Of a DNA stretch of 62,077 bases, positions 1 through 40,399 are shown piece after piece. Origin of the DNA: a virus. Position numbers and translations under genes: made by a program. The notes below the pieces were generated by a model that was not told the origin of the DNA, did no database searches, and saw only the letters and a program-made list of their open reading frames with translations. The stretch lies in IMG/VR virus record IMGVR_UViG_3300036861_000916, positions 1 through 62,077 of that record. One strand, given 5' to 3'. Position 1 is the stretch's first letter. Each line of letters opens with the position of its first letter.

Positions 1-112
1 ACGGGTCACCTGCTGGAGGCTCGTGACGACAGCAACGGGAGCCTCTTCACCTTCACGAACATCGGTGATCTGACGTTTAACCGCCGCTCCTCGACGACAG
101 GTGGGCGCCAGG
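1..112. repeat. terminal overlap, copy 1 (identical to 61966..62077)
   Basis: 112/112 nt identity between window start and window end; implies circular or terminally redundant genome with 61,965 bp unique sequence. Confidence 0.95.
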
Positions 113-1421: not shown

Positions 1422-1454
1422 GGCTTTTCGCTCGATGGATAGGAGGAAAACTCA

Positions 1455-1739
1455 GTGGCGGTTGATACGACGCAGAAAGCGATCAATCTGTGCAGCCGGC
1501 TCGCGGATGCTGCCGACCGGCTGATGATTGCGGTGGAGGACCTGGCCAACCTGAAGGACGAGAAGGAGAGCAGCGGCCTCGTTCTCACCGCAGCGGCGGT
1601 AGAGGACGCTCTGGCTACCTCCTCGCTCAAGCACGCGAGCGGGGCGAACTTCAACAGCGTCATCTCCTCCGGAGCGGCCATCAAGTCATTCATGGAGACC
1701 AACTTCCACGATGATGTGCTTGCTCAGGTCAGGCCCTGA
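1455..1739 (+). CDS. hypothetical protein
   Basis: 94-aa ORF co-oriented in structural operon, GGAGGA upstream of GTG start. Confidence 0.5.
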   Translation: MAVDTTQKAINLCSRLADAADRLMIAVEDLANLKDEKESSGLVLTAAAVEDALATSSLKHASGANFNSVISSGAAIKSFMETNFHDDVLAQVRP

Positions 1740-1764
1740 CACGGCCAGGAGTTAGGAGCTGGAG

Positions 1765-2127
1765 ATGGCAGTCAGTGACAAGCCGTGGAACGGCAGCAGC
1801 GCCAACTACCGCGACGCTGGCGCCTACTGTGACGCCTGCCTCGTCGACACGAATGAGGGCCGCGAGAAGGTTGTCGCCAACTGCAAGCTCCCCGTGAAGG
1901 AGCCCGGCGGTGCCGTGAACCGCAACGCCGCGCACAACGCTGCCGCGCGGATCAATCAGCTTGACGCGCCCGCCGACGCGAAGAAGGCCGCCGCACGCAA
2001 GCTCGTGGCCATCTACCGCCGGGACCTCAAAGAAGAGCCGCCGGAGAGCCTGCTGGGCCTGGCGGGGATGACGAGCAACCGCGCGATGAGCAGCCGGATC
2101 CGGCGCGCCGCGGGGCGCGAGGGGTAA
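1765..2127 (+). CDS. hypothetical virion-module protein
   Basis: 120-aa ORF with AGGAGCTGGAG upstream of ATG; no family recognised. Confidence 0.5.
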   Translation: MAVSDKPWNGSSANYRDAGAYCDACLVDTNEGREKVVANCKLPVKEPGGAVNRNAAHNAAARINQLDAPADAKKAAARKLVAIYRRDLKEEPPESLLGLAGMTSNRAMSSRIRRAAGREG

Positions 2128-2130
2128 CGC

Positions 2131-2838
2131 GTGGCGGTCGTCGGTGACATCATCCGTGCGCTGCTCGTGACGCGCTCCCTGGTGGACGGGAAGGCGAAGG
2201 ACGCCGACGCGCTGCCGACCGCTGTCTTGCGGCGGAATGGGACCGCCAGCGCGGCGATCGTGACCGTCACGGATGTAGGACTGGGACGCTATCTGCTGAC
2301 GGCGACGCTCGCGACCGCGCAGGGCTGGCTCACCGGCGACCATTACGCGATCGACGCGACGTGGACGATGGAGAGCACCGCCGATCAGGTGGAGGTCGTG
2401 CTGCAAGGGCAGATCGCGCCGTTGGTGACGGTCGAGGAGGAGAGCGCGCCGGCGAGTGACCGGACGATCCGCCGCGGCGACACGGTGACGCTGGCGTTCA
2501 CCGGCCTCGGGGACGTGACCGGGCGCACGAAGCTCTGGGTCACGGCGAAGGCGTCAACGGCGCACGATGACGAGCACGCCATCCTCCAGGTGACGGAGGT
2601 GGACGGCCTGACGCGGCTGAACGGCGCGGCGCCGGAGGATGAGACGCTGGCCGCGATAGACGTGACCGACCAGGCGGCAGGCGACCTGGACGTGACTATC
2701 GACGCCGAGGTGACTGCCGAGCTCGTGGCCACCTCGCGGCTGCGCTATGACGTGCAGGTGCTCACGGCTGATGGCGTGTTCACCCTGGCCGAGGGGCTGC
2801 TCGCGATCACGGACGACGTGACGAGGGCGATCGAGTAG
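2131..2838 (+). CDS. hypothetical structural protein
   Basis: 235-aa ORF, tightly packed after previous stop, GTG start. Confidence 0.5.
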   Translation: MAVVGDIIRALLVTRSLVDGKAKDADALPTAVLRRNGTASAAIVTVTDVGLGRYLLTATLATAQGWLTGDHYAIDATWTMESTADQVEVVLQGQIAPLVTVEEESAPASDRTIRRGDTVTLAFTGLGDVTGRTKLWVTAKASTAHDDEHAILQVTEVDGLTRLNGAAPEDETLAAIDVTDQAAGDLDVTIDAEVTAELVATSRLRYDVQVLTADGVFTLAEGLLAITDDVTRAIE

Positions 2839-2846
2839 GAGGGGCT

Positions 2847-3347
2847 GTGGCTTATACCGAGGCGCAGATCCGCGAGTTGATCGTTCGGTTCACGCAGGCG
2901 GACCGGCAGCCGATACTCACGGACACCGAGATCGACAACCTCGTCGCGCGCTCGAAGCGGCAGGACTCTTCGCGCCGCCCGCCGACCGACGCCGCGTGGG
3001 AGCCCACATGGAACATCAACGCCGCCGTCGCTGTCGGCTGGGAGTTGAAGGCGGCGCTCGTCGTGACGGACTTCGACGTCCGCAGCGCCGACCAGGACCT
3101 GAAGCGTAGCCAGATGCACGAGATGTGCCTGCGCCAGGCGGACCGGTGGAAGCGCCGGGTGACGGACAGCGCGCAGCTCGAGGGCAGCCTGCGCCGGAAC
3201 CTGCCGGCGGGCGTGTTCTCCAACGCGAACGACGAGCTGTGGGACGTTGCCGGCGGCTACGGTCCCGTCTGCCGCTGTGGAAATCCCTCCTGCTGCCTCT
3301 GCGGCAGTGGCGAGGCGTCACCAGGCGTTCGTTGGGTAGACGACTAG
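2847..3347 (+). CDS. hypothetical protein (possible head-tail connector component), Cys-rich C-terminus
   Basis: 166-aa ORF, GGAGGGG upstream; position upstream of adaptor genes. Confidence 0.5.
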   Translation: MAYTEAQIRELIVRFTQADRQPILTDTEIDNLVARSKRQDSSRRPPTDAAWEPTWNINAAVAVGWELKAALVVTDFDVRSADQDLKRSQMHEMCLRQADRWKRRVTDSAQLEGSLRRNLPAGVFSNANDELWDVAGGYGPVCRCGNPSCCLCGSGEASPGVRWVDD

Positions 3348-3358
3348 GAGGAGAGGCT

Positions 3359-3709
3359 TTGGCCGAAGAGCTGAATGCGGTACTGATATGCGCTGAGGAG
3401 TTGGTCGTTGAGCTAGTCGGTCCGACGCCGGACGGCACCAAAGAGGCAGTGCTGGTGATGAGGGACCCGTTCGAGGGTTCAACTATTCAGGGCGTCCAGT
3501 TGAAGATCCAATTCACAGGTGACTTGGACCGCTTTCCGGTCGGCAAGGTCTACAGAGGTACGATCAGCATTTGCGAGAAGGTGCCTTCGTGGAGTGTCAG
3601 CATCGCGGATGAGCAGGAGAGCGCGGGCGTGCAGCCGATCCGCGCCAAGTATGGTGTGAAGCCGGCGACGCTCATCGTTGGTCCGCCGCCGAAGCCGGAG
3701 GAGAAGTAG
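3359..3709 (+). CDS. hypothetical protein
   Basis: TTG at 3359 in frame of track ORF 3125..3709, preceded by GGAGGAGAGG; 5' part of the track ORF overlaps the previous gene. Confidence 0.45.
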   Translation: MAEELNAVLICAEELVVELVGPTPDGTKEAVLVMRDPFEGSTIQGVQLKIQFTGDLDRFPVGKVYRGTISICEKVPSWSVSIADEQESAGVQPIRAKYGVKPATLIVGPPPKPEEK

Positions 3710-3710
3710 C

Positions 3711-4175
3711 ATGGCGGACGTCTTCTTTACACACGGCAAGAGGGCAATCGCTGACCAAGCGGCAGCGGACGCGATCAACCTTGTTGGCACGACCGTCAAA
3801 ATTGCCCTGGTCGACTCGACCTACGCGCCCAGTCCAGACGATCAGTTCGTTGATGACGGCAGCGCGAACGATGTCACGAGCCATGAGATCAGCGTCACGG
3901 GCTACACGGGCGGCTTCGGCGGTTCGGGACGGAAGTCCCTCGCTGGCAAGTCGATCACGGCGGACCTCACGAACGACCGCGCCGAGTTCGACGCCACTGA
4001 TGTCACATGGACGGCGCTCGGGACGGGGGCGACGATCGGCGGCGCGGTGCTCATCAAGGAAAGAACCGCCGATACTGACTCGCAGGTCATCGCCTTTTTT
4101 GACCTGACGAACACCCCGACGAACGGTGGAGATGTGACTCTAAGTTTCAACGTAGAAGGGTTGCTTAACTTCTAG
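3711..4175 (+). CDS. hypothetical virion protein
   Basis: ATG 3711 (MADVFF...) in frame of track ORF 3678..4175, GGAGGAGAAG 6 nt upstream. Confidence 0.6.
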   Translation: MADVFFTHGKRAIADQAAADAINLVGTTVKIALVDSTYAPSPDDQFVDDGSANDVTSHEISVTGYTGGFGGSGRKSLAGKSITADLTNDRAEFDATDVTWTALGTGATIGGAVLIKERTADTDSQVIAFFDLTNTPTNGGDVTLSFNVEGLLNF

Positions 4176-4214
4176 AACTCGCGTCGCCCTTCGCGTTACC
4201 GTCGTTCGTAGGAG

Positions 4215-4592
4215 GTGCCCGTGTCCGCCGATATCCCGAACTGGCAGATCGACCAGGCGCGTGAGAGCTTCAACGAGAGCCTGCCCTCCGTGGCGCTCGT
4301 GCAGCACCGCACGTCTGCGAGCGATGGGCGCGGCGGGCAGACGGAGAGCTACGACGCGGGGACCGCACTCGACTGCCGCTTGCTGCAAATGGGTTCGCAG
4401 GAGTCGGCGGGGCGCGAGGAGGCAACGGGGCACGTCGCGAGCTCCTGGTGGAACATCCTGCTGCCGGCGGGTTCCGACGTGCGGACGACGGATCGTATTG
4501 TGATCGATGGTCAGACCTATGAGGTGATCGATCACGGAGACGCGAGGAGCCAGTCGCTGGTGATGAAAGTCGCGGCGCGAAGGGTGAAGTAA
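4215..4592 (+). CDS. head-tail adaptor / head-closure protein (SPP1 gp16-like)
   Basis: 125 aa, GGAGG upstream of GTG, C-terminal ...RIVIDGQTYEVI... pattern and position typical of the family (from memory). Confidence 0.55.
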   Translation: MPVSADIPNWQIDQARESFNESLPSVALVQHRTSASDGRGGQTESYDAGTALDCRLLQMGSQESAGREEATGHVASSWWNILLPAGSDVRTTDRIVIDGQTYEVIDHGDARSQSLVMKVAARRVK

Positions 4593-4595
4593 GGT

Positions 4596-4719
4596 GTGCA
4601 GGGAGGCAGCACCCCCACACGCGTGGGGAAATGTTCGTGGCCCCCGTGTCCACAGGCACGAGCTGCGGTCCACCCCCACAGGCGTGGGGAAATGAGCAAA
4701 CTATGGCGCCTCCCTGCAC
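4596..4719. repeat. 12-bp perfect inverted repeat bracketing the mini-CRISPR array
   Basis: GTGCAGGGAGGC at 4596..4607 and its reverse complement GCCTCCCTGCAC at 4708..4719. Confidence 0.85.
4605..4694 (-). CRISPR. mini-CRISPR array: 29-nt type I-E-like repeat, 32-nt spacer, degenerate terminal repeat
   Basis: Minus strand: CATTTCCCCACGCCTGTGGGGGTGGACCG (4694..4666) / spacer 4665..4634 / CATTTCCCCACGCGTGTGGGGGTGCTGCC (4633..4605); 61-nt period, CCCCAC-N4-GTGGGG stem, 8-nt tail ending ACCG. Confidence 0.7.
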
Positions 4720-4766
4720 GATAGGATTATCGGCTGCGCGCGGCCTCATCTGGAGGGTGACTTCCG

Positions 4767-5123
4767 TTGGCTGCTGATGCCATTACCATCAAACTGGTCG
4801 TCGAGAGCAACAAGCTGACTGGGCTCCCGGCGGCGGTGCGCCGCCGACTTTCACTCGCGGTGCGCAAGGTCGCCGCCGATGTCCAAGCGCGGGCGCAGCA
4901 GGTCGTGCCCGTAGACACGGGGGCCACGAAGAACTCGATCCGGGCAAAGGCGGTCGACGAGCTGACGTCCGAGGTCGTTGTCGGCACCCATTACGCGGCG
5001 TATCTGGAGTTCGGCACGCACAAGATGCCGGCCCGGCCTTATCTGCGGCCCGCGGTGGAGGCGGTGCGGCCCGCGTTCGAGGCGGCGATCGGGCAGGCGA
5101 TCGAGGAGGCGGCGGGCGGATGA
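4767..5123 (+). CDS. HK97 gp10-like head-tail/tail-completion protein
   Basis: 118 aa with VPVDTGATKNSI ... YAAYLEFGT ... ARPYLRPA, the hallmark pattern of the HK97-gp10 family; TTG start. Confidence 0.8.
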   Translation: MAADAITIKLVVESNKLTGLPAAVRRRLSLAVRKVAADVQARAQQVVPVDTGATKNSIRAKAVDELTSEVVVGTHYAAYLEFGTHKMPARPYLRPAVEAVRPAFEAAIGQAIEEAAGG

Positions 5124-5293
5124 GAACGCCAAAGCGGAATATCCTCATCTTCGTCTGCGAACGCTGCAGTCACGAATGGGCGGACGAGGCGACAGGCCGT
5201 CTTGGCGCGAGGCACTGGTGTCCGGTTTGCCATCGCGGGCGTGGCGAGTTTAAGTCTGCTGCGAGGCAGCGGGAGGCGGCGGGCGGTGGCTGA
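5120..5293 (+). CDS. small zinc-ribbon protein (57 aa, below ORF-track cutoff)
   Basis: ATGA overlap with upstream stop; CERC-x17-CPVC; its stop overlaps the GTG 5286 start of the next gene. Confidence 0.4.
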   Translation: MRTPKRNILIFVCERCSHEWADEATGRLGARHWCPVCHRGRGEFKSAARQREAAGGG

Positions 5294-5726
5294 CATCAAT
5301 GAGCTGGGCCTGTGCGCGGAGTTCCTCTTCGAGGAGCTGACCGGGCACGCGCCACTCACCGCGCTCGTTGGCGACCGGGTCTATCGAGACCTCGCGCCGC
5401 CGGGGGCTGCCCTGCCGTATGCCATCTTCTCGTTCGTGGCGGGCTTGGACCGTAACGCGATGGGAAGCCGCTCCATCATCTTCACGCGGCCCTTCTGGGA
5501 CATCAAGGGCGTCACGAAGGGCACCGACAGCACGGCGGCGGACGCCATCGCCGACGCGATCCACGGGGCCGTGAACGGGAAGCAGCGGCTCAATGTGGCC
5601 GACGGCGAGCTAATCGTCCTCGGTTGCCGCAGGGAGAGCCTGATCGAGTTCCCGGAGCTGACCGAGGACCAACTGTATCTGCACCGCGGCGGAGAATACC
5701 GCGTCTTTTGCCACATCAAGCGATAG
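5286..5726 (+). CDS. DUF3168-like tail terminator / tail completion protein
   Basis: GTG 5286 in frame of track ORF 5202..5726, GGGAGG upstream; ...LTALVGDRVYRDLAPPGAALPYAIFSFV... typical of the family; sits just before the major tail gene. Confidence 0.6.
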   Translation: MADINELGLCAEFLFEELTGHAPLTALVGDRVYRDLAPPGAALPYAIFSFVAGLDRNAMGSRSIIFTRPFWDIKGVTKGTDSTAADAIADAIHGAVNGKQRLNVADGELIVLGCRRESLIEFPELTEDQLYLHRGGEYRVFCHIKR

Positions 5727-5736
5727 GGGGTGAACC

Positions 5737-7344
5737 TTGGCTGAGCGGGCGACTGTGTTCGAGACGACTCTTCTGGGGGTGGAGGCGACGCCGGGCGTCG
5801 CCGTCTCCCCCGTCCGGCGACTGCAGGCAACCCAGTTCGAGTGGAGCCCGCAGGTGCCCGTTGAGCCCTTCATCCCAATGGGGAGCAAGGCCGCGACGAC
5901 AGCCGTGCGCCAGAAGGAGTGGACCGAGGGCGACATCACCGGCGTCGTGGCCTTCAACGATCTGATCTACCTGCTCTCCAGCGTGTTGACCTCCGCCACG
6001 CCGACGACGCCGACGGGCGCGACGAACACGCGGCGGTGGCGCTTCTTTCCGGCGAACTACGGCCCCGACACGCCCATCACCTACACGGCACAGAGGGGTT
6101 CCTCCGTGCGCGCGGAGCAGGCGACGCACCTCCTGATCGACGCCTTGACCCTGCGTTTCACGCGCGAGGAAGCGGCCGTCTCCGGTTCCATCCTGGCGCA
6201 GGAGACGCAGGAGAGCGTGACGATCAGCGCCGGGCGCAACGAGGTGCAGCAGGTCACCAAGGGCACGCACACGGGCGGCACGTTCACGCTCACCTTCGAG
6301 ACGCAGACGACAGCCGCGATCGACTGGGACGCGAGCGCCTCGGAAGTGCAGACCGCCCTTGAGGCTCTGTCGAACATCGCCCCTGGCGATGTCGCGGTGA
6401 CCGGCAACGAGCAGGGACCGTGGACGGTGACGTTCACCGGCGCGCTGGCGGCGTCCAACCGCACCCAGATGACCATCGACGGCACGTTGCTGACGGGAGG
6501 CGCCGGCGAGGCGGTGACGACGGTCACGCAGGGCCAGACGCTTTCCAACGTGACCGAGATGCCCGTGGATCCCGACATCGTCAGCGTCTTCATGGGTGAC
6601 GCGCTCACGGACGAGGTGCAGACAGTCACGGTGCAGGCGACGGGCGGCACGTTCGCGCTGTCGTTCACCGATTGGGCGGGCACGACGCACACGACGACGG
6701 CCATCGCCGAGGCAGCAGCCGCCGCCACCGTGCAGACGGCGCTGGAGGCGCTCGCGTGCTTCGTTGTCGGCGACGTGACGGTGACGGGCTCCGCAGGCGG
6801 TCCGTGGACGGTGACGTTCGGCGGGCGCTACTCCGGCAACAACGTGCCCATGCTCGTCGGCGACGGGACACTGCTCACGGGGATCACGGCCCCGGCGATC
6901 GCCGTCGTCCAGACGACCGCGGGCGGGCTCTCGAAGCTGCTGCGGGTCTCCGAGTTCGAGTGGGCCATCGCGGACAGGTTCACGGGTCAGTTCACCCTTG
7001 ACGACGCAGAGCCTTCGTTCAGCGCGGTCGTGGAGCGATCGCCGGGGACTACGGCGCAGATGGTGATGCAGTATGACGCCGACGCAGCGGCCATCATGGC
7101 CAATCTGCGCGCGAAGGACACGAAGTTCCTACGGCTGGAGGCGTGGGGGCCGGTCATCGAGTCGGACTTTCGGTATCGGTTGCGGCTCACGGTGCCGGTC
7201 AAGTTCACCGGGAACGACCAGAGCGACCAGGACGACGTCTACTCGAAGACCTTCGACGCGACGGCGATGTATTCGACCGTGAGCAGCTTCAATGGCTTTG
7301 TCGAGGCGGTCATAGACGCACCCATTGCCGGGCTGGAGGCATAG
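5737..7344 (+). CDS. major tail protein with two inserted tandem ~123-aa domains
   Basis: 535 aa, position between tail terminator and chaperone genes; internal repeat GGTF.L.F...VQTALEAL...GDV.VTG...GPWTVTF. Confidence 0.55.
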   Translation: MAERATVFETTLLGVEATPGVAVSPVRRLQATQFEWSPQVPVEPFIPMGSKAATTAVRQKEWTEGDITGVVAFNDLIYLLSSVLTSATPTTPTGATNTRRWRFFPANYGPDTPITYTAQRGSSVRAEQATHLLIDALTLRFTREEAAVSGSILAQETQESVTISAGRNEVQQVTKGTHTGGTFTLTFETQTTAAIDWDASASEVQTALEALSNIAPGDVAVTGNEQGPWTVTFTGALAASNRTQMTIDGTLLTGGAGEAVTTVTQGQTLSNVTEMPVDPDIVSVFMGDALTDEVQTVTVQATGGTFALSFTDWAGTTHTTTAIAEAAAAATVQTALEALACFVVGDVTVTGSAGGPWTVTFGGRYSGNNVPMLVGDGTLLTGITAPAIAVVQTTAGGLSKLLRVSEFEWAIADRFTGQFTLDDAEPSFSAVVERSPGTTAQMVMQYDADAAAIMANLRAKDTKFLRLEAWGPVIESDFRYRLRLTVPVKFTGNDQSDQDDVYSKTFDATAMYSTVSSFNGFVEAVIDAPIAGLEA

Positions 7345-11371: not shown

Positions 11372-12229
11372 ATGAGCGCGCCCGTCATCGATGAGTCTGC
11401 GGTCTTCCCAATCGAGATCAGCCGCGGCGCTGTCGGCGGCCATCAGTTCGCCGTCGCGATCATAGAGACCCGCAACGGCGCCGAGCAGCGTGTCTTGATG
11501 AACGAAAACGGCCGCCTCCGCCTGAACGTGACGCAGGGGAGCCGCACGCCGGAGCAGGCGGCGGACCTGACGGCCTTCTGGCTGGCACGCTTCGGCCCGA
11601 CGCGCGGCTTCCGCGTGCGCCACTGGCACGACTACAAGCTGACGGACGAGCCGCAGACGCTCACCGGCGCGCCGACGTTCCAGCTCATCAAGACGTATAC
11701 GTTCGGCGCAGTGAGTTACGTGCGCGACATCTACAAGATCGACGAGACCGAGATCAGCGTAAGCGCCGAGCGGAACAACAGTCCCTTCGCCGGCTTCACC
11801 TTCGACGCGGATACCGGGATCTTCACGCTCACCGCCGACATCACCAAGACGGTCACCAACATCACGCAGGCCGTGACGCCGACCGTAACGACCTCGACCG
11901 CGCACGGTTTCACCGTCGGCGACATCGTCTACTTCTCCGGCGTCGTCGGGATGACGCAGATCAACGGCGAGGTGGCGGAGGTGCTTTCCACACCCACCGG
12001 CTTCACGTTCACGGTCGACCTGGACACGACCGGGTTCGACGCCTATACGTCGGGGGGCACGGTGGCGAAATACGTGCAGCCGAGCGAGGAACTGACGATC
12101 ACCTGCCACTTCCACGTGCCGATGCGGTTCGACACCGAGCAGCAGATGATGATCGAGCGAGACGTTCTTATTCGGGATTGGGAGAATATCCCACTCGTCG
12201 AGCTGCGGCACGGGGTAGCGGTGAGCTAG
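11372..12229 (+). CDS. distal tail protein, DUF2460 / RcGTA g12-like
   Basis: 285 aa; N-terminus FPIEISRGAVGG...RNG.EQR...GFRVRHWHDY matches the remembered DUF2460 pattern; followed by g13/g14/g15-like genes. Confidence 0.7.
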   Translation: MSAPVIDESAVFPIEISRGAVGGHQFAVAIIETRNGAEQRVLMNENGRLRLNVTQGSRTPEQAADLTAFWLARFGPTRGFRVRHWHDYKLTDEPQTLTGAPTFQLIKTYTFGAVSYVRDIYKIDETEISVSAERNNSPFAGFTFDADTGIFTLTADITKTVTNITQAVTPTVTTSTAHGFTVGDIVYFSGVVGMTQINGEVAEVLSTPTGFTFTVDLDTTGFDAYTSGGTVAKYVQPSEELTITCHFHVPMRFDTEQQMMIERDVLIRDWENIPLVELRHGVAVS

Positions 12230-13084
12230 ATGCCACGCGACATCTCCACCGCGCTTCGGGATCACCTTGCGGGGGAGATTCTTTCCCTCGCGCTCTGCGT
12301 GAAGCTGACGCGCCTGGACGGCACGGTGCTCGGGTTCACCTCGTTTGACCGACCGCTGACGGTGGACGGTCTCGACTACGAGCCGGAGAGCGCGGTTCAG
12401 GCGACGGCGTTGCGGGCGAGCGAGGGCAGCGGGGCGGACAACTTCGAGGTGATCGGGCTGCTCACGTCCGACCGCGTCACGTCGCTGGAGTTGCGCGCCG
12501 GGCTCTACGATGGCAGCGAGATCGAGGCGTTCATCGTCAACTGGGCCGACCTCACGATGGGGAGCCTGATCCTCGTCGCCGGCAGTCTGGGCGAGGTGTC
12601 CTTCTCGGAGGGTCAGTTCCGCGCGGAAGTGCGCTCGCTGATGCAGCGGCTCCAGCAGTCGATCGGGGATCTGGTTACGAGGACGTGCCAGGTGCGGCGC
12701 CTGGGCGATACGGAGTGCCAGGTGGATTTGTCTGGGTTCACCTTCCAGCGAACGGTGCTCTCTGCGTCCGGCAAGACGATCACCTTCGCGTCTGACAGCC
12801 ATGCGACGGGCTACTACGACTACGGGCGCATTGAATTCCGCAGCGGGGCGAATGCCGGCTTCGAGCGTGAGGTGAAATCCCACGTGCTCGATGGAGGGAA
12901 CGCCGCCATCGAGCTGCAGGAGGCGTTCCCATTCGCGGTGGCGGCGGGAGATATCGCCGTTCTTGAGGCTGGCTGCGATCGCACGTTCACGAGCTGCGTT
13001 TCAAAATTCAACAACGGTGCCAACTTTCGCGGCATGCCTGATCTGCCAGGACGAGACCAGGTCCTTCGCAGGGGTCGGCGATGA
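12230..13084 (+). CDS. DUF2163 / BR0599-family tail protein (RcGTA g13-like)
   Basis: 284 aa; ...C.VRRLGDTEC.VDL... and C-terminal CDRTFTSCVSKFNNGANFRGMPDLPG. Confidence 0.7.
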   Translation: MPRDISTALRDHLAGEILSLALCVKLTRLDGTVLGFTSFDRPLTVDGLDYEPESAVQATALRASEGSGADNFEVIGLLTSDRVTSLELRAGLYDGSEIEAFIVNWADLTMGSLILVAGSLGEVSFSEGQFRAEVRSLMQRLQQSIGDLVTRTCQVRRLGDTECQVDLSGFTFQRTVLSASGKTITFASDSHATGYYDYGRIEFRSGANAGFEREVKSHVLDGGNAAIELQEAFPFAVAAGDIAVLEAGCDRTFTSCVSKFNNGANFRGMPDLPGRDQVLRRGRR

Positions 13085-32299: not shown

Positions 32300-32323
32300 G
32301 TCTCTCCTCCTTGCGCGGGCCGG

Positions 32324-32363
32324 AGTTCAACTGCCGGCCAATCAATTAGGCTACGGTTCAACC
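32324..32363. promoter_or_regulatory. pair of AGTT(C/G)AACT palindromes 31 bp apart
   Basis: AGTTCAACT 32324..32332 (centre 29 nt upstream of ATG 32299) and GGTTCAACC 32355..32363. Confidence 0.45.
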
Positions 32364-35989: not shown

Positions 35990-36216
35990 AACTCCTCCTT
36001 CTTGTCACGCCGAAGATTAACCCCTCGGCACCGCTCTGTGCGGATGGTTGAAGTATACAGACGCAGCGCTGGAACTGCAAGGGGTCAGGCGAACTATTTC
36101 TCGCAGTGCAACGAGACAGGCTGAACTTTCGCTCGGAAGGGATTGCTTCGGTGGCTGTCAAACCGGTAAACTCGCGGCGGGCGCTTGAACCGCCGCACAA
36201 CCGAAGGAGGGCACAG

Positions 36217-37377
36217 TTGAAGGGTCATTTGAGAGAACGGTCGCCCGGTTGTTTTGAGTGTATCGTCAGCCTGGGGCGTGGCCCGGACGGCAAGCCGCGC
36301 CAGAAGAGTCGCACGGTGCGCGGCGGGGTCCGCCTCGCGCAGCGCACGCTCAACACTATGCTGGCGGATGTCGGCTCCGGCAAGCTGAAACCGGCTTGCG
36401 GTGAGACGGTTGCGAGCTACCTGGAGGCCTGGCTCGCGACAACGGGCGCCCTGCGCTTGAGCCCGAAGAGCCATCAGTCCTACTCGGGCGTCTTCCGCGT
36501 CTGGGTCATTCCCGAGCTGGGAGCCTTGCCGCTGGAGAAGTTGACCGCGCGCGACATCGAAGCGTGGCTGGTGCGTGCCTCAGCGCCCGGGGCGCGGCGG
36601 GACGGCAGGGCGGGCTCCCTCTCTCCAGGAAGTCTGCGGCACTACGTCAGGCTCCTGCGCGCGGCGCTGCAGGATGCCGTCCGGCAGGAGCGGCTGCTGC
36701 GGAACCCGTGCGACACCGCAGCGAAGCCCCGGGTTACGCACGAGGAGGTGACAGCGCTTTCGGTGGAGGAACTGCGGCGCCTCGTCCCGGCGACCAGCGG
36801 GCGGCTACGGATCGCGGTGCTGCTCGGTGGGATGTTGGGCTTGCGCGCTGGTGAGTGCGTCGCGTTGCAATGGGCCGACATCGATTTCGGCGCCGGCGTT
36901 GTCACCATCCGGCGCTCGCTGGAGGACACGAAGAAGCGCGGCCTGCAGTTCAAGCTGCCGAAGAGCGGCAAGACGCGCAAGCTGGCGCTGCCGGAGGCCC
37001 TGGCACGCGAGTTGCGGCGGCACAAGGGCGAGCAGGCGACGCAGCGGTTGCAGCTCGGCGACGGGTGGCAGAACAACGACCTGGTCCTCGCGCGCGAAGA
37101 CGGCTCCATCTGGTCCCGGGGCGCACTGTCGACGGCGTTCCGGGACCAGGCGCTTCGGCTTGGGCTGCCCACGACACGCTTCCACAGCCTGCGGCATTCG
37201 TGCGCCACCGCGCTCTTGGGCTGCGGGCAGGGTGCAGCCGTTGTGCAGGCCGTGCTGGGACACAGCACGCCCTCCTTCACGGTGCAGGTCTACGGCCACG
37301 CACTCCCGGAGCACATGCGGGAAGCGGCGCGTGTGATGGATCGCGCGATGGGAGATGCACTGGGGGCCGTTGGATGA
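36217..37377 (+). CDS. int: tyrosine recombinase / phage integrase
   Basis: TTG 36217 (GGAGGG upstream) in frame of track ORF 36106..37377; N-terminal SAM-like arm, C-terminal ...HSLRHSCAT...LGHS...Y catalytic pattern. Confidence 0.85.
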   Translation: MKGHLRERSPGCFECIVSLGRGPDGKPRQKSRTVRGGVRLAQRTLNTMLADVGSGKLKPACGETVASYLEAWLATTGALRLSPKSHQSYSGVFRVWVIPELGALPLEKLTARDIEAWLVRASAPGARRDGRAGSLSPGSLRHYVRLLRAALQDAVRQERLLRNPCDTAAKPRVTHEEVTALSVEELRRLVPATSGRLRIAVLLGGMLGLRAGECVALQWADIDFGAGVVTIRRSLEDTKKRGLQFKLPKSGKTRKLALPEALARELRRHKGEQATQRLQLGDGWQNNDLVLAREDGSIWSRGALSTAFRDQALRLGLPTTRFHSLRHSCATALLGCGQGAAVVQAVLGHSTPSFTVQVYGHALPEHMREAARVMDRAMGDALGAVG

Positions 37378-37558
37378 AAATTGGATGACGCGGAAATAGG
37401 GCGTATCGCAGCCACGAAAAAAGAAAAACTGCCTTAATCGAATCAGAGCCGAGCAGCCGCCGCCCGGCTCTCTTTTCGTCTCGTCCAGGCGTCCCGAGTT
37501 GCGACCGGACGGGCGGCCAGTTGGTTCATGTTGCGCTCATTCGCGGTGAGAATGTTGT

Positions 37559-38152
37559 TCAGCCATTGGATTGAAGGCGTGAAGGTTGCCCCAGAAGCCG
37601 CTCCCTGACCTGTTGGCGAATCTGCTCCGCCCGGGACGGTCCTGCCCGCCAGATCGGCAGCGTAGTTCGGCACTCCTGCTCATGTCCGTGGATGTCCAAG
37701 ACCGTGTCTGCGCACACCTGGCACAGGGAGGCCTGGCGTGCGGTGAGCTGCGTATGCTTGCAGGAATGGCACGTATGGCGAGTGCGGCCTAACGGGCCGA
37801 TCCAGTTGCAGCGCGGGCATTCATAGTAACGGTGAGCCGCTCGGGTGCTTTCAGTAAAGTGGTCATTCGGAAGCAAGTCAATCCAGCCGAGCAAGAGTGG
37901 GACCGGCTCGAACCATTCGCCATGCTGCCGGCAGAAGCGAAATGCCGTGTGGATCTCGTTCTCCAAATCATGATCGCCGGCTACCAGTCGAAGCACCTTC
38001 AACACCAGTGGGCTGCAGGCTTGGATGTGACGAAGGCGTGACGCTGGATGGACTGCCACTCCAATCTTGATGAGCCCGCCGTCGATCGGCTGAATGAAGT
38101 AGACGAAGCTGCCACACGTTCTGTGTCGCCTGACGTTGATGTCGATCTTCAT
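37559..38152 (-). CDS. T5orf172 / GIY-YIG-superfamily domain protein with C-terminal zinc ribbons
   Basis: 197 aa; FVYFIQPIDGGLIKIGVAVHPASRLRHIQ...E.EIHTAF...GEWF; then CPRC...CHSC. Confidence 0.6.
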   Translation of the reverse strand: MKIDINVRRHRTCGSFVYFIQPIDGGLIKIGVAVHPASRLRHIQACSPLVLKVLRLVAGDHDLENEIHTAFRFCRQHGEWFEPVPLLLGWIDLLPNDHFTESTRAAHRYYECPRCNWIGPLGRTRHTCHSCKHTQLTARQASLCQVCADTVLDIHGHEQECRTTLPIWRAGPSRAEQIRQQVRERLLGQPSRLQSNG

Positions 38153-38231
38153 GTTGAACCCCCAATGATAGTATATCGATTAGGGTTCAATGAAGCAAGC
38201 CCTTGGCTGCAACTCTCCTGCGCGCGTGAGA

Positions 38232-38260
38232 TTGACAGACGCGCGCCCGCTCGCTAAAAT
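38232..38260 (+). promoter_or_regulatory. near-consensus sigma-70 promoter
   Basis: TTGACA (38232..38237) - 17 nt - TAAAAT (38255..38260). Confidence 0.65.
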
Positions 38261-38413
38261 GGGAGCAGATGGAACTGCGATGGACGCAGCGGGCACGTGC
38301 CGGGCAGATGCCAATTCCCTCATAAGGTGCAGGCGGCCACTGCCGTGCGAATCGGCACCATCTGGGCAGCGGGCGGAGGCAACGATCGAGACGGTGCTTG
38401 GCGCCCGCGCATG

Positions 38414-38466
38414 GTTGGGGCGGCTGGAGCCTAACCGGTCACCGGGTTCGATTCCCGGCCCCGACC
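38414..38466 (+). ncRNA. tRNA-like minihelix 1 (acceptor + one arm + T-arm; no D-arm)
   Basis: GTTGGGG/CCCCGAC acceptor, CCGGG-TTCGATT-CCCGG T-arm, single GCTGG-AGCCTAA-CCGGT arm; only 53 nt. Confidence 0.4.
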
Positions 38467-38476
38467 GTTCGGGCAA

Positions 38477-38545
38477 TGCCCCGTAGCTCGCAAAGGGACG
38501 AGCACCGCGACGGCGGAGGGGCGGGTTCGACTCCCGCCGGGGCCG
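38477..38545 (+). ncRNA. tRNA-like module 2 (normal D- and T-arms, anticodon arm replaced by a 4-bp/4-nt hairpin)
   Basis: GCCCCG/CGGGGC acceptor, TA-GCTC...GAGC D-arm, GCGGG-TTCGACT-CCCGC T-arm, but only 17 nt between the D and T arms. Confidence 0.4.
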
Positions 38546-38561
38546 CTTGCCCGATACTACC

Positions 38562-38633
38562 TTTGGCCTGGTGTAATGGGTAACACGCCCGGCACTGAAC
38601 CGGGAGACGGAGGTTCGAGGCCTCCGGCCAGAC
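38562..38633 (+). tRNA. tRNA-Gln(CUG)-like, with A instead of U at position 33
   Basis: 72-nt cloverleaf folded by hand: TTTGGCC/GGCCAGA acceptor (U1-A72 as in bacterial tRNA-Gln), GTGT/ACAC D, CCCGG-CACTGAA-CCGGG anticodon arm, GGAGG-TTCGAGG-CCTCC T-arm. Confidence 0.6.
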
Positions 38634-38674
38634 CCGAACCCAGATTGATGAGCCGCCGGTAGCAGAGGCGGACG

Positions 38675-38714
38675 GCGGGCGGAGGCAACGGTCGAGAGAC
38701 CGTCCTCCGCCCGC
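38675..38714. terminator. strong hairpin between convergent ncRNA unit and minus-strand gene
   Basis: GCGGGCGGAGG (38675..38685) pairs with CCTCCGCCCGC (38704..38714); followed by TGCTGTTT. Confidence 0.65.
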
Positions 38715-38720
38715 TGCTGT

Positions 38721-39062
38721 TTACTCCGTCCGACCGGGCCGGGGCAGACGCCCTTTCAGTCGCCGCTGCTCCTCCTTTGCCTCCTCCAGGAGCCGCTCCA
38801 GCTCCTCTGTTCGACGCTCCAGCTCCTGGCGCTCCCTGTCCTGCTCCAGCGTCCAGGCTCTGGCCTCCGCGACGGCTGGCCTCACCGCCGCATCGAAGAG
38901 CCCATCGAGGTAGGCGCTGTAGCTCAGTCCCAAGTGCTTCGCATAGGCCCGTAGATCGGCGACATCCTCATGATGGAGTATCGCCTCTGCATGTGCGGTA
39001 ACGCCCAGGAACGGCTCGCCTTTCTCGTCCGTCCCCAGAACTTCTCTCGGTTTTCCTCGCAT
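38721..39062 (-). CDS. hypothetical coiled-coil protein
   Basis: ATG 39062 with AAGGAGAGAAAG upstream, in frame of track ORF 38721..39275. Confidence 0.45.
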   Translation of the reverse strand: MRGKPREVLGTDEKGEPFLGVTAHAEAILHHEDVADLRAYAKHLGLSYSAYLDGLFDAAVRPAVAEARAWTLEQDRERQELERRTEELERLLEEAKEEQRRLKGRLPRPGRTE

Positions 39063-39243
39063 CTTTCTCTCCTTCGTGAGAGCTAACTCCAGTGCTGCGG
39101 AAGGGTAGCACCCTTCGGTTAACCGAAGGGTAGCAGGAAGCGTGCCAACTTCAACATCGCGTCGTAACCGGAAATGGTGATTGACACGACTGACATAGAT
39201 TCTCGGTCGGTTGGGGCAAATGCGGGAGGGTGGCGCGGTAGCG

Positions 39244-40053
39244 TCAGCGATCGGCGCCGGTCGCGGGGACACCAAGGGCCTTGCGGATCCGGCGCAGCGC
39301 CCGCCGCTCGATGAGTGCCACGCGCTGTGGAGAGCAGCATACCGCCCTCGCTATCTCGCGGCACGTCTGCCGATCCTCATAGGGTGCGAGTCCATACCGG
39401 CGGAGGAGGAGGTCCCGCTCGCGCTCGCACAGCACGGAGAGAGCGCGGTCGCATAGAAGGGCGTCGGTTACGGCTTCATCGATCGGGGGATCGTCGGAGG
39501 GGAGCACGTCGATCAGTGGGAGGCCCTCGTTGTCATCGCTCGCCGAGGTGCTCGCCTCGAACGGTATCGCCTCCTGGGGCAATGCGCGGAGCCAGGCGAC
39601 CCGCTCCTCCGTCCAGTCCAGCTCGCGGGCGATCTCCTCGTCCGAGGGCGCGCGGCCCTCTCTCGCCTCTAGTTGCCGGACCGTGGCAGTGACCTGGCGA
39701 AGGGCCTTCTGGGCGCCAAACGAGAGCCGGATGCTCCGGGAGTGTCTGTCCATCGCCTGGTAGAGAGTATTCACGATCGAGTGATGCGCGTATGTCGCGA
39801 GCCGTGCGCCCTTTGCGGGATCGAAGCCGACCAGCGTGCGCAGGAACGCCAGTCGCGCCTCCTGGAGGGCGTCATCCGGATCCAGGAAGCTTGCGTGGAT
39901 CCGACCTGCGAGTTGGCGGATGAGGCGATGGTGTGCGGCTACGAGCCTGCGCGACGCCTCCGCCGGGTCCACATCGTGGCGCTTGCCCTGCACGCACAGG
40001 CAGAGCATGACTTCCTCTTCGCGGCTCATCCGCTCCGTCTCCATCGCCATCAC
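39244..40053 (-). CDS. sigma-70-family RNA polymerase sigma factor (group 3-like; regions 2, 3 and 4)
   Basis: 269 aa; ...DDALQEARLAFLRTLVGFDP.KG.RLATYA...; C-terminal ...RQTCREIARAVCCSPQRVALIERRALRRIR region 4 HTH. Confidence 0.85.
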   Translation of the reverse strand: MMAMETERMSREEEVMLCLCVQGKRHDVDPAEASRRLVAAHHRLIRQLAGRIHASFLDPDDALQEARLAFLRTLVGFDPAKGARLATYAHHSIVNTLYQAMDRHSRSIRLSFGAQKALRQVTATVRQLEAREGRAPSDEEIARELDWTEERVAWLRALPQEAIPFEASTSASDDNEGLPLIDVLPSDDPPIDEAVTDALLCDRALSVLCERERDLLLRRYGLAPYEDRQTCREIARAVCCSPQRVALIERRALRRIRKALGVPATGADR

Positions 40054-40399
40054 CGCGCTCCTCCTCGCAGTTCAACGCTCGTGCGGCACGAAGAAAGAGA
40101 AATTCCGGTTTTGTCGCTGTAAGCCGAGACCGGAAACTCGTCTCTACACACCTTCGCCACTGACGGCCCGAGGGAAAGCAGGCTAGGTGGGCACCCGCAA
40201 TGTCGTTCTCCCTGCCACGGGAAGGCCGTTCAGTTACTGCATTGGCTAGTCAGCAAGTTTCCCTTGCAGCTCTTCCGTTGGCACGGGAGCCATTGCAAGC
40301 CGCGGGGATTTATCCCCGGCGGTCACTGACGCTAACACGTCTCAGGCTCCATTTTAGCATGCAAGATGCGAGTTGAACAGATCGCAAAGAGATGTAGAC

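What the first reader, a model, noticed from the sequence alone, without database searches (positions are those of the whole stretch)
38232..38714. Consensus promoter-to-terminator noncoding unit with three tRNA-like modules, two of them structurally truncated
TTGACA-N17-TAAAAT (38232..38260) is the best promoter in the window, and an 11-bp GC hairpin (38675..38714) closes the unit. In between lie four elements:
- A ~100-nt leader with alternative pairings: CAGATGG at 38266 or CAGATGC at ~38312 can each pair with CCATCTG at 38358.
- A 53-nt acceptor + T-arm minihelix with only one further arm (38414..38466).
- A 69-nt element with normal D- and T-arms whose anticodon arm is replaced by CCGC-GACG-GCGG (38477..38545).
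- A 72-nt tRNA-Gln(CUG)-like cloverleaf (38562..38633).

A 27-29-nt direct repeat (GCGGGCGGAGGCAACG...) flanks the cluster at 38369 and 38675. Several readings are possible: decoy or toxin-resistant tRNA mimics against anticodon nucleases, processing signals, or tRNA 3'-half copies serving as attP for the integrase 1 kb away.
Basis: partly seen in the sequence, partly recalled or inferred. Interest (0 to 1): 0.7.

Follow-up and report, generated by a model that had tools for sequence, protein, structure and literature searches.

The report
Phage RNA operon carrying stripped-down tRNA look-alikes
A temperate phage uses its strongest promoter to make one near-normal glutamine tRNA and two tRNA-shaped RNAs that cannot read codons; one of the two belongs to a widespread, mostly unannotated class of phage tRNA look-alikes whose anticodon arm is cut down to a stub.

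Summary
The only 11/12 sigma-70 promoter match in the 62-kb phage genome (38232-38260) is followed by a ~100-nt leader, a stem-loop, three tRNA-shaped modules and a strong GC hairpin. Only tRNA-Gln(CUG) is called by ARAGORN and Rfam, and it has a rare A33.

Three new points:
- A 96%-related phage (L003) has the same promoter, leader and hairpin but no tRNA modules. The 306-bp module block is therefore an indel, bounded by a duplicated hairpin arm.
- Sister phages carry other cargo behind the same promoter: tRNA-Met plus tRNA-Thr, an oversized tRNA-like, or nothing.
- Module 2 (CCGC-GACG-GCGG in place of the anticodon arm) belongs to a recurrent class of phage tRNA-shaped genes with amputated anticodon arms. 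A partial IMG/VR scan gave 62 distinct intact examples, 58 of them missed by ARAGORN. About 20 carry the same GACG mini-hairpin, and compensatory changes occur in all four helices. Cultured examples are Streptomyces phage Yara (unannotated) and, as a short-stem variant, Microbacterium EA phages ('tRNA-Undet').

The attP reading is not supported, and the alternative leader pairing is not conserved. Function is inferred only: processed, non-decoding tRNA mimics, probably part of the phage-host conflict over tRNAs.

The parts
38153..38190 (.). Imperfect inverted repeat (GTTGAACCCC ... GGGTTCAA) between the T5orf172 start codon and the promoter. It is a candidate regulator or sigma-factor site.
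   Evidence: Inverted repeat I4. The motif GTTGAACYCC is enriched in the window: 16 matches against 5.2 expected, 0/100 shuffles. The same motif abuts the -35 hexamer in sister phages L156 and L157.
38232..38260 (+). Sigma-70-type promoter TTGACA-N17-TAAAAT.
   Evidence: 11/12 match. It is the only 11/12 match in the whole window. It is conserved in L003 (identical), L156 and L157.
38267..38365 (+). Leader RNA of about 100 nt, closed by CAGAUGG/CCAUCUG. It contains an 18-codon ORF starting at 38269.
   Evidence: Fold. It is 94-96% identical to L003, where it runs straight into the terminator. No Rfam family matches at E<10.
38366..38410 (+). First stem-loop. Its 5' arm is a copy of the terminator's 5' arm, its 3' arm has diverged, and it has no U-tract. 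It would form the 3' cap of the leader after RNase P cuts at module 1.
   Evidence: -24.5 kcal/mol, z = -3.07. Repeat D1.
38392..38697 (+). 306-bp indel block relative to phage L003. It holds the three tRNA-shaped modules and is bounded by the 28-nt direct repeat 38364-38391 / 38670-38697.
   Evidence: Alignment A2, L003 sequence, repeat spacing of 306.
38413..38466 (+). Module 1: a 53-54-nt minimal tRNA-like. It has an 8-9-bp acceptor stem, one 6-bp hairpin with the 7-nt loop AGCCUAA, and a T arm CCGGG-UUCGAUU-CCCGG. It has no D arm.
   Evidence: Fold -30 kcal/mol, z = -2.55. Rfam mascRNA 23.2 bits and tRNA-Sec 22.1 bits, both far below gathering. ARAGORN does not call it in bacterial or mitochondrial mode.
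38477..38545 (+). Module 2: a tRNA-shaped gene with normal D and T arms. The anticodon arm is replaced by a 4-bp stem plus a GACG tetraloop. There is a U1-C72 mismatch and G at position 14.
   Evidence: Rfam tRNA 28.8 bits against a gathering score of 29. Fold. It is a member of the GACG-type family.
38562..38635 (+). tRNA-Gln(CUG) with a U1:A72 pair and the anticodon loop CACUGAA (A33 instead of U33). CCA is not encoded.
   Evidence: ARAGORN. Rfam 46.7 bits. A33 occurs in 3 of 350 tRNAs in the comparison set.
38672..38716 (.). Terminal GC-rich hairpin (13 + 6 bp) between the RNA unit and the converging ORF113-sigma genes. It is a likely bidirectional terminator but lacks a canonical U-tract.
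   Evidence: -49.4 kcal/mol, z = -5.35. The terminator scan does not call it. It is conserved in L003, and an analogous hairpin is present in L157.
37559..38152 (-). T5orf172/MUG113 (GIY-YIG-like, homing-endonuclease-type) gene, divergent from the RNA unit. This slot is variable in sister phages.
   Evidence: Pfam hits. L158 has an HNH gene at this position and L157 has small ORFs.
38721..39062 (-). ORF113 (no known domain), converging on the hairpin. It is followed upstream by the phage sigma-70-family gene at 39244-40053.
   Evidence: Gene calls on the identical contig L002. Pfam. Homologues exist only in L003 and the sister phages.

Best explanation
SHOWN. The region is a self-contained non-coding RNA operon of a temperate siphovirus. 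The only near-consensus sigma-70 promoter in the genome precedes a ~100-nt leader RNA, a stem-loop, three tRNA-shaped genes and a strong GC hairpin. That hairpin faces the converging ORF113-sigma genes.

The three tRNA-shaped genes form a 306-bp accessory block, present or absent between 96%-related phages. The block is bounded by a duplication of the hairpin's 5' arm. It sits at a cargo hot-spot where sister phages place other tRNA-type genes behind the same promoter, next to homing-endonuclease-type genes.

Only tRNA-Gln(CUG) has an anticodon loop, and it carries a rare A33. Module 2 is a member of a recurrent, structurally conserved class of phage tRNA-shaped genes. In this class the anticodon arm is reduced to a 3-4-bp stem with a tetraloop, most often GACG. 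Module 1 is an acceptor/T-arm minihelix with one extra hairpin.

INFERRED. Both truncated modules keep the 'top half' that RNase P, RNase Z, the CCA-adding enzyme and elbow- or acceptor-binding proteins recognise. They lack what the decoding centre and loop-specific anticodon nucleases need. The primary transcript is therefore probably cut into a hairpin-capped leader sRNA, two stable non-decoding tRNA mimics and one decoder.

The most likely role of the mimics is in the tRNA-centred phage-host conflict. They would bind or titrate a host or prophage factor that recognises the tRNA body, such as an immune tRNase that measures from the elbow, an acceptor-end toxin or a tRNA-binding sensor, without being inactivated. 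The A33 tRNA-Gln would act as a nuclease-insensitive replacement tRNA.
For: Unit anatomy.

Indel: L003 has the identical promoter and leader joined directly to the hairpin. Homology starts exactly at GATTGACAG.

Hot-spot: sister phages with ~80% TerL identity share the synteny int, variable gene, TTGACAG promoter, ncRNAs, hairpin, then converging ORF110-117 and sigma. L156 carries tRNA-Met plus tRNA-Thr. L157 carries a 93-nt tRNA-like with an expanded anticodon arm. L158 carries nothing.

Class membership of module 2:
- 62 distinct hits have at least 6/7 acceptor pairs and 5/5 T-stem pairs. ARAGORN calls only 4 of them.
- A GACG-specific scan gave 23 loci, about 20 of them tRNA-shaped.
- In a 10-sequence alignment 92% of cells pair, and 13/20 pairs show double changes, including 3 of the 4 pairs in the mini-hairpin. 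0/500 shuffles reach this, and slid controls pair at 36-51%.
- The same architecture occurs in cultured Streptomyces phage Yara (unannotated, Rfam tRNA 54.7 bits). It also occurs in a Clostridia MAG array that additionally has a D-armless mini element.
- Microbacterium EA phages carry a short-stem variant annotated tRNA-Undet(nnn), tRNA-Ala or nothing.
- Related phages keep the truncated gene through compensatory T-stem changes (L078 versus L092).

Context from the literature: defence nucleases that cut or amputate the anticodon arm, and phage tRNAs that evade them (PMC12445682, PMC13056530, PMC11464382, PMC10264068). Homing endonucleases rearranging phage tRNA loci (PMC13096335).
Against: There is no expression, processing or aminoacylation data.

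Modules 1 and 2 of this window exist in a single lineage (the window plus an identical Logan contig), so their own conservation cannot be tested. L003 does without them.

Module 2 has degenerate features (G14, U1-C72 mismatch, score just under the Rfam threshold) that would also fit decay.

No conserved protein partner was found next to class members.

A stoichiometric sponge has to compete with roughly 10^5 cellular tRNAs (general knowledge).

The class is heterogeneous: no hairpin, tetraloops of several kinds, and short stems with a real Ala anticodon loop. It may therefore not have one function. The GACG family was partly selected by a pattern that fixes the loop and parts of the D and T arms.
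Confidence: 0.5

Rival explanations
1. Modules 1 and 2 are decaying tRNA pseudogenes that hitch-hike with a functional tRNA-Gln in a mobile tRNA cassette. They have no function of their own.
For: They are present in one lineage only and absent from the 96%-related L003. Module 2 has G14, a U1-C72 mismatch and an Rfam score of 28.8, below 29. Module 1 has no close homologue: element-1-like hits are few and near the chance expectation of the descriptor.
Against: Every remaining helix is intact: 8-9-bp and 6-bp acceptor stems, 4-bp D stem, 5-bp T stems, consensus T loops. The deleted anticodon arm of module 2 is replaced by a perfect 4-bp stem plus tetraloop, not a ragged deletion. The same replacement (short stem plus GACG) recurs in about 20 unrelated viral contigs with compensatory changes. 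It is also kept among related cultured phages.
Confidence: 0.2
2. The truncated modules are purely processing punctuation (t-element or mascRNA style). As RNase P/Z sites, their only job is to release the hairpin-capped leader sRNA and tRNA-Gln from one transcript.
For: The insertion duplicated the 5' arm of the hairpin, so the leader keeps a 3' stem-loop immediately before module 1. Acceptor/T-arm minihelices are sufficient RNase P/Z substrates (established knowledge). There is a weak mascRNA-model hit.
Against: tRNA-Gln alone would already supply the RNase P and RNase Z sites, so two extra modules are unnecessary. Class members also occur as solitary genes with no neighbouring RNA to release, and inside 25-gene tRNA arrays where punctuation is redundant.
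Confidence: 0.15
3. The modules are attP, or remnants of integration into host tRNA genes, used by the integrase 1 kb away.
For: An integrase gene lies at 36106-37377. tRNA genes are common attB sites (established knowledge).
Against: Both acceptor strands are present in each module, so these are not 3' fragments. The 25-nt 3' half of module 1 has no exact match in GTDB representative genomes. The block is absent in L003. A T5orf172 gene and a separate terminator-like intergenic region lie between int and the unit. Sister phages with 55-57% identical integrases carry entirely different RNAs here.
Confidence: 0.03
4. The truncated modules are still aminoacylated adaptors. They act either as unconventional decoders (module 2 presenting ACG, module 1 presenting CCU) or as aminoacyl donors for a non-ribosomal reaction.
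For: Some class members keep a matched identity set. Microbacterium EA genes have G3:U70, A73, an encoded CCA and a 7-nt loop with anticodon UGC on a 2-bp stem. 9 of 62 intact class members have G3:U70. The invariant ACG in the GACG loop could be an Arg anticodon remnant.
Against: Module 2 cannot form a 7-nt loop and has no U33. Shortening the anticodon arm by 5 nt changes the anticodon-to-CCA distance that the ribosome requires (established knowledge). Acceptor identities across the class are heterogeneous. No transferase gene is linked.
Confidence: 0.07

Closest known systems
Phage-encoded tRNA gene clusters with nuclease-evading variants (T5 tRNA-Lys versus PARIS, phage tRNA-Thr versus P2-OLD, mycobacteriophage anticodon-loop variants)
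   Same: tRNA-type genes carried as accessory cargo. They have altered anticodon arms or loops, sit next to homing-endonuclease-type genes, and are plausibly selected by tRNA-targeting defences (PMC11464382, PMC12445682, PMC10264068, PMC13096335). The window's tRNA-Gln with A33 fits this pattern directly.
   Different: Known cases are full-length decoders with point changes. In the P2-OLD case a 'shorter stem' means one lost base pair. Modules 1 and 2 here have lost 5 or more nucleotides of the anticodon arm, or the whole D arm, and cannot decode.
'tRNA-OTHER / tRNA-Undet(nnn)' genes of Microbacterium cluster EA phages, and the unannotated gene in Streptomyces phage Yara
   Same: They have the same overall architecture as module 2: 66-70 nt, intact acceptor, D and T arms, and a shortened anticodon arm. 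Yara even has the GACG tetraloop.
   Different: The EA genes keep a 7-nt loop with a UGC anticodon and the Ala identity set. The literature treats them simply as 'a single tRNA-Ala' (PMC7302621). None has been characterised, and there is no sequence homology to the window beyond the tRNA consensus.
tmRNA tRNA-like domain and acceptor/T-arm minihelices
   Same: A top-half-only tRNA mimic with no anticodon. Such RNAs are substrates for RNase P and the CCA-adding enzyme (established knowledge).
   Different: ARAGORN finds no tmRNA. There is no G3:U70, no tag reading frame and no pseudoknots. Module 2 has a normal D stem, which tmRNA lacks.
mascRNA / MEN-beta tRNA-like, plant mitochondrial t-elements, gammaherpesvirus TMER vtRNAs
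   Same: tRNA-like modules embedded in a longer transcript that recruit RNase P/Z to define the ends of neighbouring RNAs. Their anticodon arms are reduced.
   Different: These are eukaryotic or organellar systems. The Rfam mascRNA score here is 23.2 against a gathering score of 42.5. Relatives of module 2 also occur as solitary genes.
D-armless mitochondrial tRNAs and bacterial tRNA-Sec (8/5 acceptor/T geometry)
   Same: Module 1 has no D arm and a 13-bp acceptor plus T stack (8/5 or 9/4).
   Different: There is no UCA anticodon, no long variable arm and G at position 33. The tRNA-Sec score is 22.1 against 47. ARAGORN's mitochondrial mode does not call it.

Membership tests
Canonical tRNA (Rfam RF00005), applied to 38562-38633 | Cloverleaf scoring at or above the gathering score of 29 bits, with an anticodon called by ARAGORN | tested here: met
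   46.7 bits. ARAGORN calls tRNA-Gln(ctg).
Canonical tRNA (Rfam RF00005), applied to 38562-38633 | U33 preceding the anticodon | tested here: not met
   The loop is CACUGAA, so position 33 is A. A33 occurs in 3 of 350 tRNAs in the comparison loci.
Canonical tRNA (Rfam RF00005), applied to module 2 (38477-38545) | Score at or above 29 bits, and a 5-bp anticodon stem with a 7-nt loop | tested here: not met
   28.8 bits. A 4-bp stem plus the 4-nt loop GACG replaces the arm. ARAGORN does not call it.
Canonical tRNA (Rfam RF00005), applied to module 1 (38413-38466) | Four-arm cloverleaf | tested here: not met
   No tRNA-model hit at E<10. Only an acceptor stem, one hairpin and a T arm are present.
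Anticodon-arm-truncated phage tRNA-like genes, GACG type (class proposed here) | A 7-bp acceptor stem, a 4-bp D stem, a 3-4-bp stem closed by a GACG tetraloop at the anticodon-arm position, a 4-6-nt variable region, and a 5-bp T stem with a UUCRANY loop | tested here: met
   Module 2 aligns in register with 9 other members. 92% of cells pair and covariation occurs in all four helices. 23 IMG/VR loci, Yara and L138 carry it.
tmRNA | tRNA-like domain with G3:U70, plus a tag-peptide reading frame and pseudoknots | tested here: not met
   ARAGORN tmRNA search is negative, including at a relaxed threshold. The 3:70 pairs are U:G (module 1) and C:G (module 2).
attP carrying a host tRNA 3' fragment | Only the 3' part of a tRNA gene is present, identical to the host tRNA 3' end, and adjacent to int | tested here: not met
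   5' acceptor strands are present. The module-1 3' half has no exact match in GTDB representatives.
mascRNA-menRNA (RF01684) and tRNA-Sec (RF01852) | Score at or above the family gathering threshold | tested here: not met
   23.2 against 42.5, and 22.1 against 47.
Bacterial Y RNA / YrlA tRNA mimic | A tRNA-like module inserted in a Ro-binding stem, usually linked to rsr/rtcB | tested here: inconclusive
   Only a 17.2-bit Deinococcus Y RNA hit against a gathering score of 80. No Ro/Rsr or RtcB domain appeared among the 20 window ORFs scanned with Pfam, but not all ORFs were scanned.
Intrinsic (Rho-independent) terminator | A GC-rich hairpin followed by a U-tract | tested here: inconclusive
   The hairpin is very stable. 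The tail UGCUGUUU fails the criterion of at least 5 U in 8.

The most novel reading that the evidence does not exclude
Anticodon-arm-amputated tRNA look-alikes form a widespread, essentially unannotated class of phage non-coding RNAs. Module 2 here is one, Streptomyces phage Yara has another, and Microbacterium EA phages and dozens of IMG/VR contigs carry related truncated forms. On this reading they act as RNA anti-defence factors: uncleavable tRNA-body mimics that inhibit or titrate immune tRNases (OLD-, PARIS- or Schlafen-like) or acceptor-end toxins. They would be delivered from mobile, strongly promoted cassettes.
Probability: 0.22. Interest if true: 0.85.

Novelty: new variant of a known kind. 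Interest (0 to 1): 0.66.

Why it matters
Phage tRNA genes have recently been reinterpreted as counter-measures to tRNA-cleaving immunity. This includes nucleases that amputate the whole anticodon arm.

A conserved class of phage genes that look like tRNAs already lacking that arm does not fit either codon supplementation or replacement-tRNA models. Standard annotation largely misses them: ARAGORN called 4 of 62.

If these RNAs are stable and bind tRNA-recognising host factors, they would be a new type of RNA-based anti-defence or regulatory molecule. Members exist in cultured Streptomyces and Microbacterium phages, so the question can be tested directly.

The window also gives a clear example of how such cargo moves. 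The block was inserted into, or deleted from, the terminator hairpin of a small-RNA gene at a hot-spot shared with homing-endonuclease genes.

Tried and rejected
- BLAST of the unit against INPHARED phages: no match.
- Exact-pattern scans of IMG/VR for the module-2 T arm and for the leader: none.
- The search for related loci with the sigma and integrase proteins: nothing useful.
- Protein searches with sigma and ORF113 found only the window and L003.
- The single metagenome DNA scan returned two chance coding hits. The collection evidently lacks the window and L003.
- The genome scan for CGCGACGGCG...GGTTCGA gave mostly coding false positives in high-GC genomes. Only L138, and perhaps L149, were tRNA-like.
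- ARAGORN at relaxed thresholds and in mitochondrial mode produced noise and did not call modules 1 or 2.
- Clustering of neighbouring proteins around 120 truncated tRNA-like loci found no partner shared beyond closely related phages.
- A search for antisense targets of the leader within the phage found nothing above chance.
- Homology between the window leader and the conserved 3' RNA of L156/L157 is at best faint and was not pursued.
- The 18-codon leader ORF is preserved in L003. Confinement of the substitutions to two codons has about a 20% chance probability by my estimate, so I do not treat it as evidence of coding.
- An Ala-identity hypothesis for the whole class was rejected: only 9 of 62 have G3:U70.
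- Literature searches found no description of anticodon-arm-truncated phage tRNA-likes. The library is incomplete, so absence is not proof.
Full report
**Setting.** The window is a complete-looking 62-kb, 65% G+C siphovirus genome. It encodes a tape measure protein, a GTA-like tail protein, terminase, portal, capsid, amidase, an integrase and its own sigma-70-family factor. The unit under study lies between a leftward T5orf172/GIY-YIG-like gene (37559-38152) and the leftward ORF113-sigma pair (38721-40053). It is about 1 kb downstream of the integrase gene. The phage has no close relative in INPHARED or IMG/VR. A Logan contig (L002) is identical over the unit.

**Observation check.**
- TTGACA-N17-TAAAAT at 38232-38260 is an 11/12 sigma-70 match. 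It is the only one in the window on either strand.
- The terminal hairpin (38672-38716) is exceptionally stable: -49.4 kcal/mol, z = -5.35. It lacks a U-tract and is not called as an intrinsic terminator.
- ARAGORN and Rfam at gathering threshold call only tRNA-Gln(CUG) at 38562-38633.
- In E-value mode the 69-nt element at 38477-38545 matches the tRNA model end to end at 28.8 bits, against a gathering score of 29. A 12-nt CCGC-GACG-GCGG hairpin stands in for the anticodon arm.
- The 53-nt element gets only weak mascRNA and tRNA-Sec hits. Its minimum-energy fold is an 8-9-bp acceptor stem, a 6-bp hairpin with the 7-nt loop AGCCUAA, and a canonical T arm. It has no D arm.
- The 28-nt direct repeat is at 38364-38391 and 38670-38697, 25/28 identical.
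- One further anomaly: the tRNA-Gln anticodon loop is CACUGAA, so position 33 is A. Among 350 ARAGORN tRNAs in the phage loci gathered here, position 33 is U in 318, C in 24, G in 5 and A in 3.

**The block of tRNA-shaped genes is an indel in a small-RNA gene.**
- A JGI contig (L003) encodes a sigma fragment 96% identical and an ORF113 homologue 92% identical to the window's.
- L003 carries the identical promoter and a 94-96% identical leader. There the leader runs straight into the terminal hairpin, with no tRNA-like sequence.
- Homology with the window begins exactly at GATTGACAG, and the genes upstream differ.
- The window's extra 306 bp therefore lies between two copies of the hairpin's 5' arm, which is the direct repeat.
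- In the window the first copy pairs with a diverged 3' arm to form a weaker stem-loop (38366-38410, z = -3.07) that has no U-tail.
- I infer that this hairpin lets transcription read through, and caps the leader once RNase P cuts at module 1.
- Insertion cannot be distinguished from deletion by repeat recombination.
The alternative-pairing idea therefore has no comparative support.
- The leader matches no Rfam family and has no antisense target within the phage.

**The locus is a cargo hot-spot.** Three sister phages with ~80% TerL identity (L156, L157, L158) share the same gene order: integrase, a variable slot, then converging ORF110-117 and sigma. Their identities to the window are 55-57% for integrase, 39-43% for sigma and 35-40% for ORF113. 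The cargo differs:
- L156 has a TTGACAG-N17-TAGAAT promoter, a different leader, canonical tRNA-Met(CAU) and tRNA-Thr(UGU) (62 and 56 bits), and a further structured RNA.
- L157 has the promoter, another leader, a 93-nt tRNA-like with an expanded anticodon arm and an aberrant T loop (no Rfam tRNA hit), the same structured RNA, and a GC hairpin.
- L158 has no cassette and carries an HNH gene in the variable slot.
- The variable slot in the window holds the T5orf172 gene.

Homing endonucleases are known to associate with and rearrange phage tRNA loci (PMC13096335).

**Module 2 belongs to a recurrent class.**

*The scan.* I scanned IMG/VR for a common D arm (GTAGCTC...GAGC) lying only 15-21 nt from GGTTCGANTCC. 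A normal tRNA needs 25-26 nt, so this selects shortened anticodon regions. Of 102 distinct sequences, 62 have at least 6/7 acceptor pairs and 5/5 T-stem pairs, although the pattern required neither. ARAGORN calls only 4 of the 62, three of them as 'tRNA-???'. The Rfam tRNA model scores the six class members I tested individually at 38-55 bits.

*Variety of the anticodon region.* It ranges from no hairpin at all (12-14 nt between the D and T arms) to 3-5-bp stems capped by short loops. The most frequent cap is GACG, exactly as in the window.

*The GACG subtype.* A GACG-specific scan found 23 loci, about 20 of them tRNA-shaped. Their stems include CGC/GCG, CUC/GAG, GCC/GGC, UGC/GCA, AUUC/GAAU, CCCC/GGGG, CCUC/GAGG, GUC/GAC and ACUC/GAGU.

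*Covariation.* In a 10-member alignment that includes module 2:
- 92% of cells pair.
- 13 of 20 pairs show changes on both sides, including 3 of the 4 pairs in the mini-hairpin.
- No shuffle out of 500 reaches the observed values.
- Slid controls pair at 36-51%.

Two caveats apply. The search pattern fixes the loop and parts of the D and T arms, and the shuffle control ignores phylogeny. The acceptor-stem covariation is free of selection bias.

*Genomic context.* Members occur inside 5- to 26-gene tRNA arrays and also as solitary genes. L078 and L092 keep the gene through compensatory T-stem changes. No protein partner is shared by neighbourhoods across lineages.

*Cultured phages.* Streptomyces phage Yara has an unannotated member (CCGG-GACG-CCGG, Rfam tRNA 54.7 bits). 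Microbacterium cluster EA phages have a 67-70-nt gene annotated variously as tRNA-OTHER/Undet(nnn), tRNA-Ala or nothing. It carries G3:U70, A73, an encoded CCA, and a 2-bp stem with the loop AUUGCGC. The literature records it only as 'a single tRNA-Ala' (PMC7302621).

*A possible origin.* The module-2 stem A-CCGC...GCGG-AG matches the anticodon stem of the sister phage's tRNA-Thr(UGU), A-CCGCC...GGCGG-AG. This may hint at derivation from such a gene.

**Module 1.** A structural descriptor (T arm plus a perfectly paired 7-bp acceptor stem only 8-26 nt upstream) found seven other mini tRNA-likes in the collected loci. That is near the number expected by chance for 7-bp pairing (my estimate), so only the longer 9-bp pairing of module 1 stands out. 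The best analogue is in a Clostridia MAG (L138). There a D-armless mini element and a GACG-type element sit in one array between tRNA-Leu and tRNA-Met. That is the same pairing of oddities as in the window, in an unrelated low-G+C setting. Module 1 otherwise remains unique.

**attP test.**
- Each module has both acceptor strands.
- The 25-nt 3' half of module 1 has no exact copy in 185,579 representative genomes.
- The block is dispensable in L003.
- The int-proximal intergenic region (37378-37558) is separate and has its own terminator-like hairpin.

**Mechanism.**

*Shown:* the anatomy, the indel, the hot-spot, and structural conservation of the module-2 class.

*Inferred:*
- Transcription starts at the sigma-70 promoter, which is plausibly active in lysogens too. 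Possible regulation through the enriched GTTGAACYCC motif is untested.
- RNase P/Z processing yields a hairpin-capped leader, two non-decoding tRNA mimics and tRNA-Gln.
- The mimics keep the acceptor, T arm and elbow, and lack the anticodon loop.
- The most economical reading comes from recent work on defence nucleases that cut or amputate the anticodon arm and on phage tRNAs that evade them (PMC12445682, PMC13056530, PMC11464382, PMC10264068).
- On that reading this is anti-defence cargo: a loop-variant replacement tRNA, plus tRNA-body mimics that engage tRNA-recognising factors without being destroyed.

*Rivals:* pseudogenes, mere processing punctuation, and unconventional aminoacyl carriers. 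These are weighed in the structured fields.

**Verdict.** Its tRNA-like cargo is an accessory block, not an att site. One truncated module ties into a widespread, largely unannotated and uncharacterised class of phage tRNA look-alikes. Function remains inferred.

Noticed in passing
L156:3905-4025 and L157:4735-4850: A conserved structured RNA of about 95-120 nt lies downstream of the tRNA-type genes in two sister phages. It has a GGGCAGCCGYCC...GGRCGGCACCUUU closing helix with one compensatory change, a UAUCGC/GCGAUA hairpin and an invariant CACACGAGAAG. No Rfam family matches. Similarity to the window's leader is at best faint.
   Followed up: partly
L157:4639-4731: A 93-nt tRNA-like with normal acceptor and D arms. 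Its anticodon arm is greatly expanded (CUCG...CGAG enclosing a second helix and a 13-nt loop) and its T loop is AUCGAAG. ARAGORN calls it tRNA-??? and the Rfam tRNA model does not hit.
   Followed up: partly
window 38269-38325: An 18-codon ORF (MELRWTQRARAGQMPIPS) starts 2-3 nt after the predicted transcription start. It is preserved with the same length and stop in L003 (…GLMPIPR). All five substituted bases within it fall in two codons. It could be a leaderless micropeptide or coincidence.
   Followed up: partly
window 38153-38162, 32322-32331, 40067-40076 and 13 others; L156 ~3567-3580; L157 ~4498-4510: The motif GTTGAACYCC is enriched in the window (16 matches against 5.2 expected). It sits directly upstream of the -35 hexamer of the RNA-unit promoter in the sister phages, and just upstream of the sigma gene in the window. 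It is a candidate binding site for a phage regulator or the phage sigma factor.
   Followed up: partly
L156:1-1005, 5435-6565, 11600-12748: Sister phage L156 carries three IS605 OrfB/TnpB (Cas12f-like) genes scattered through otherwise syntenic regions. It also carries a DpdA-family gene.
   Followed up: no
L073 (IMGVR_UViG_3300005458_000014), tRNA array 26-5700: Ten of the 24 tRNAs in this phage array (Ser x2, Thr x3, Leu, Gly, Pro, Ala and the tRNA-Gly(tcc) attributed to the neighbouring index) have C33 instead of U33. This suggests a lineage-wide anticodon-loop shift.
   Followed up: no
L138:2700-3090 (minus strand): In the Clostridia MAG array, about 300 nt of unassigned sequence separate the GACG-type element from the mini element. 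The mini element is immediately followed by a second T-arm-like segment (CCGGTTCGACTCCGG ACGTCCGCCCA). ARAGORN and Rfam call nothing there.
   Followed up: no
L066:1-67: Immediately upstream of the GACG-type element in this IMG/VR contig lies a tandem paralogue with the same T arm and acceptor 3' strand. It has an over-long (28-nt) anticodon region and is cut by the end of the stored locus.
   Followed up: no
window 38477-38545 versus L156:3770-3842: The truncated arm of module 2 (A-CCGC-GACG-GCGG-AG) keeps the same stem sequence as the anticodon stem of the sister phage's canonical tRNA-Thr(UGU) (A-CCGCC-CUUGUAA-GGCGG-AG). tRNA-Thr(UGU) is the reported target of P2-OLD anticodon-arm amputation.
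   Followed up: no
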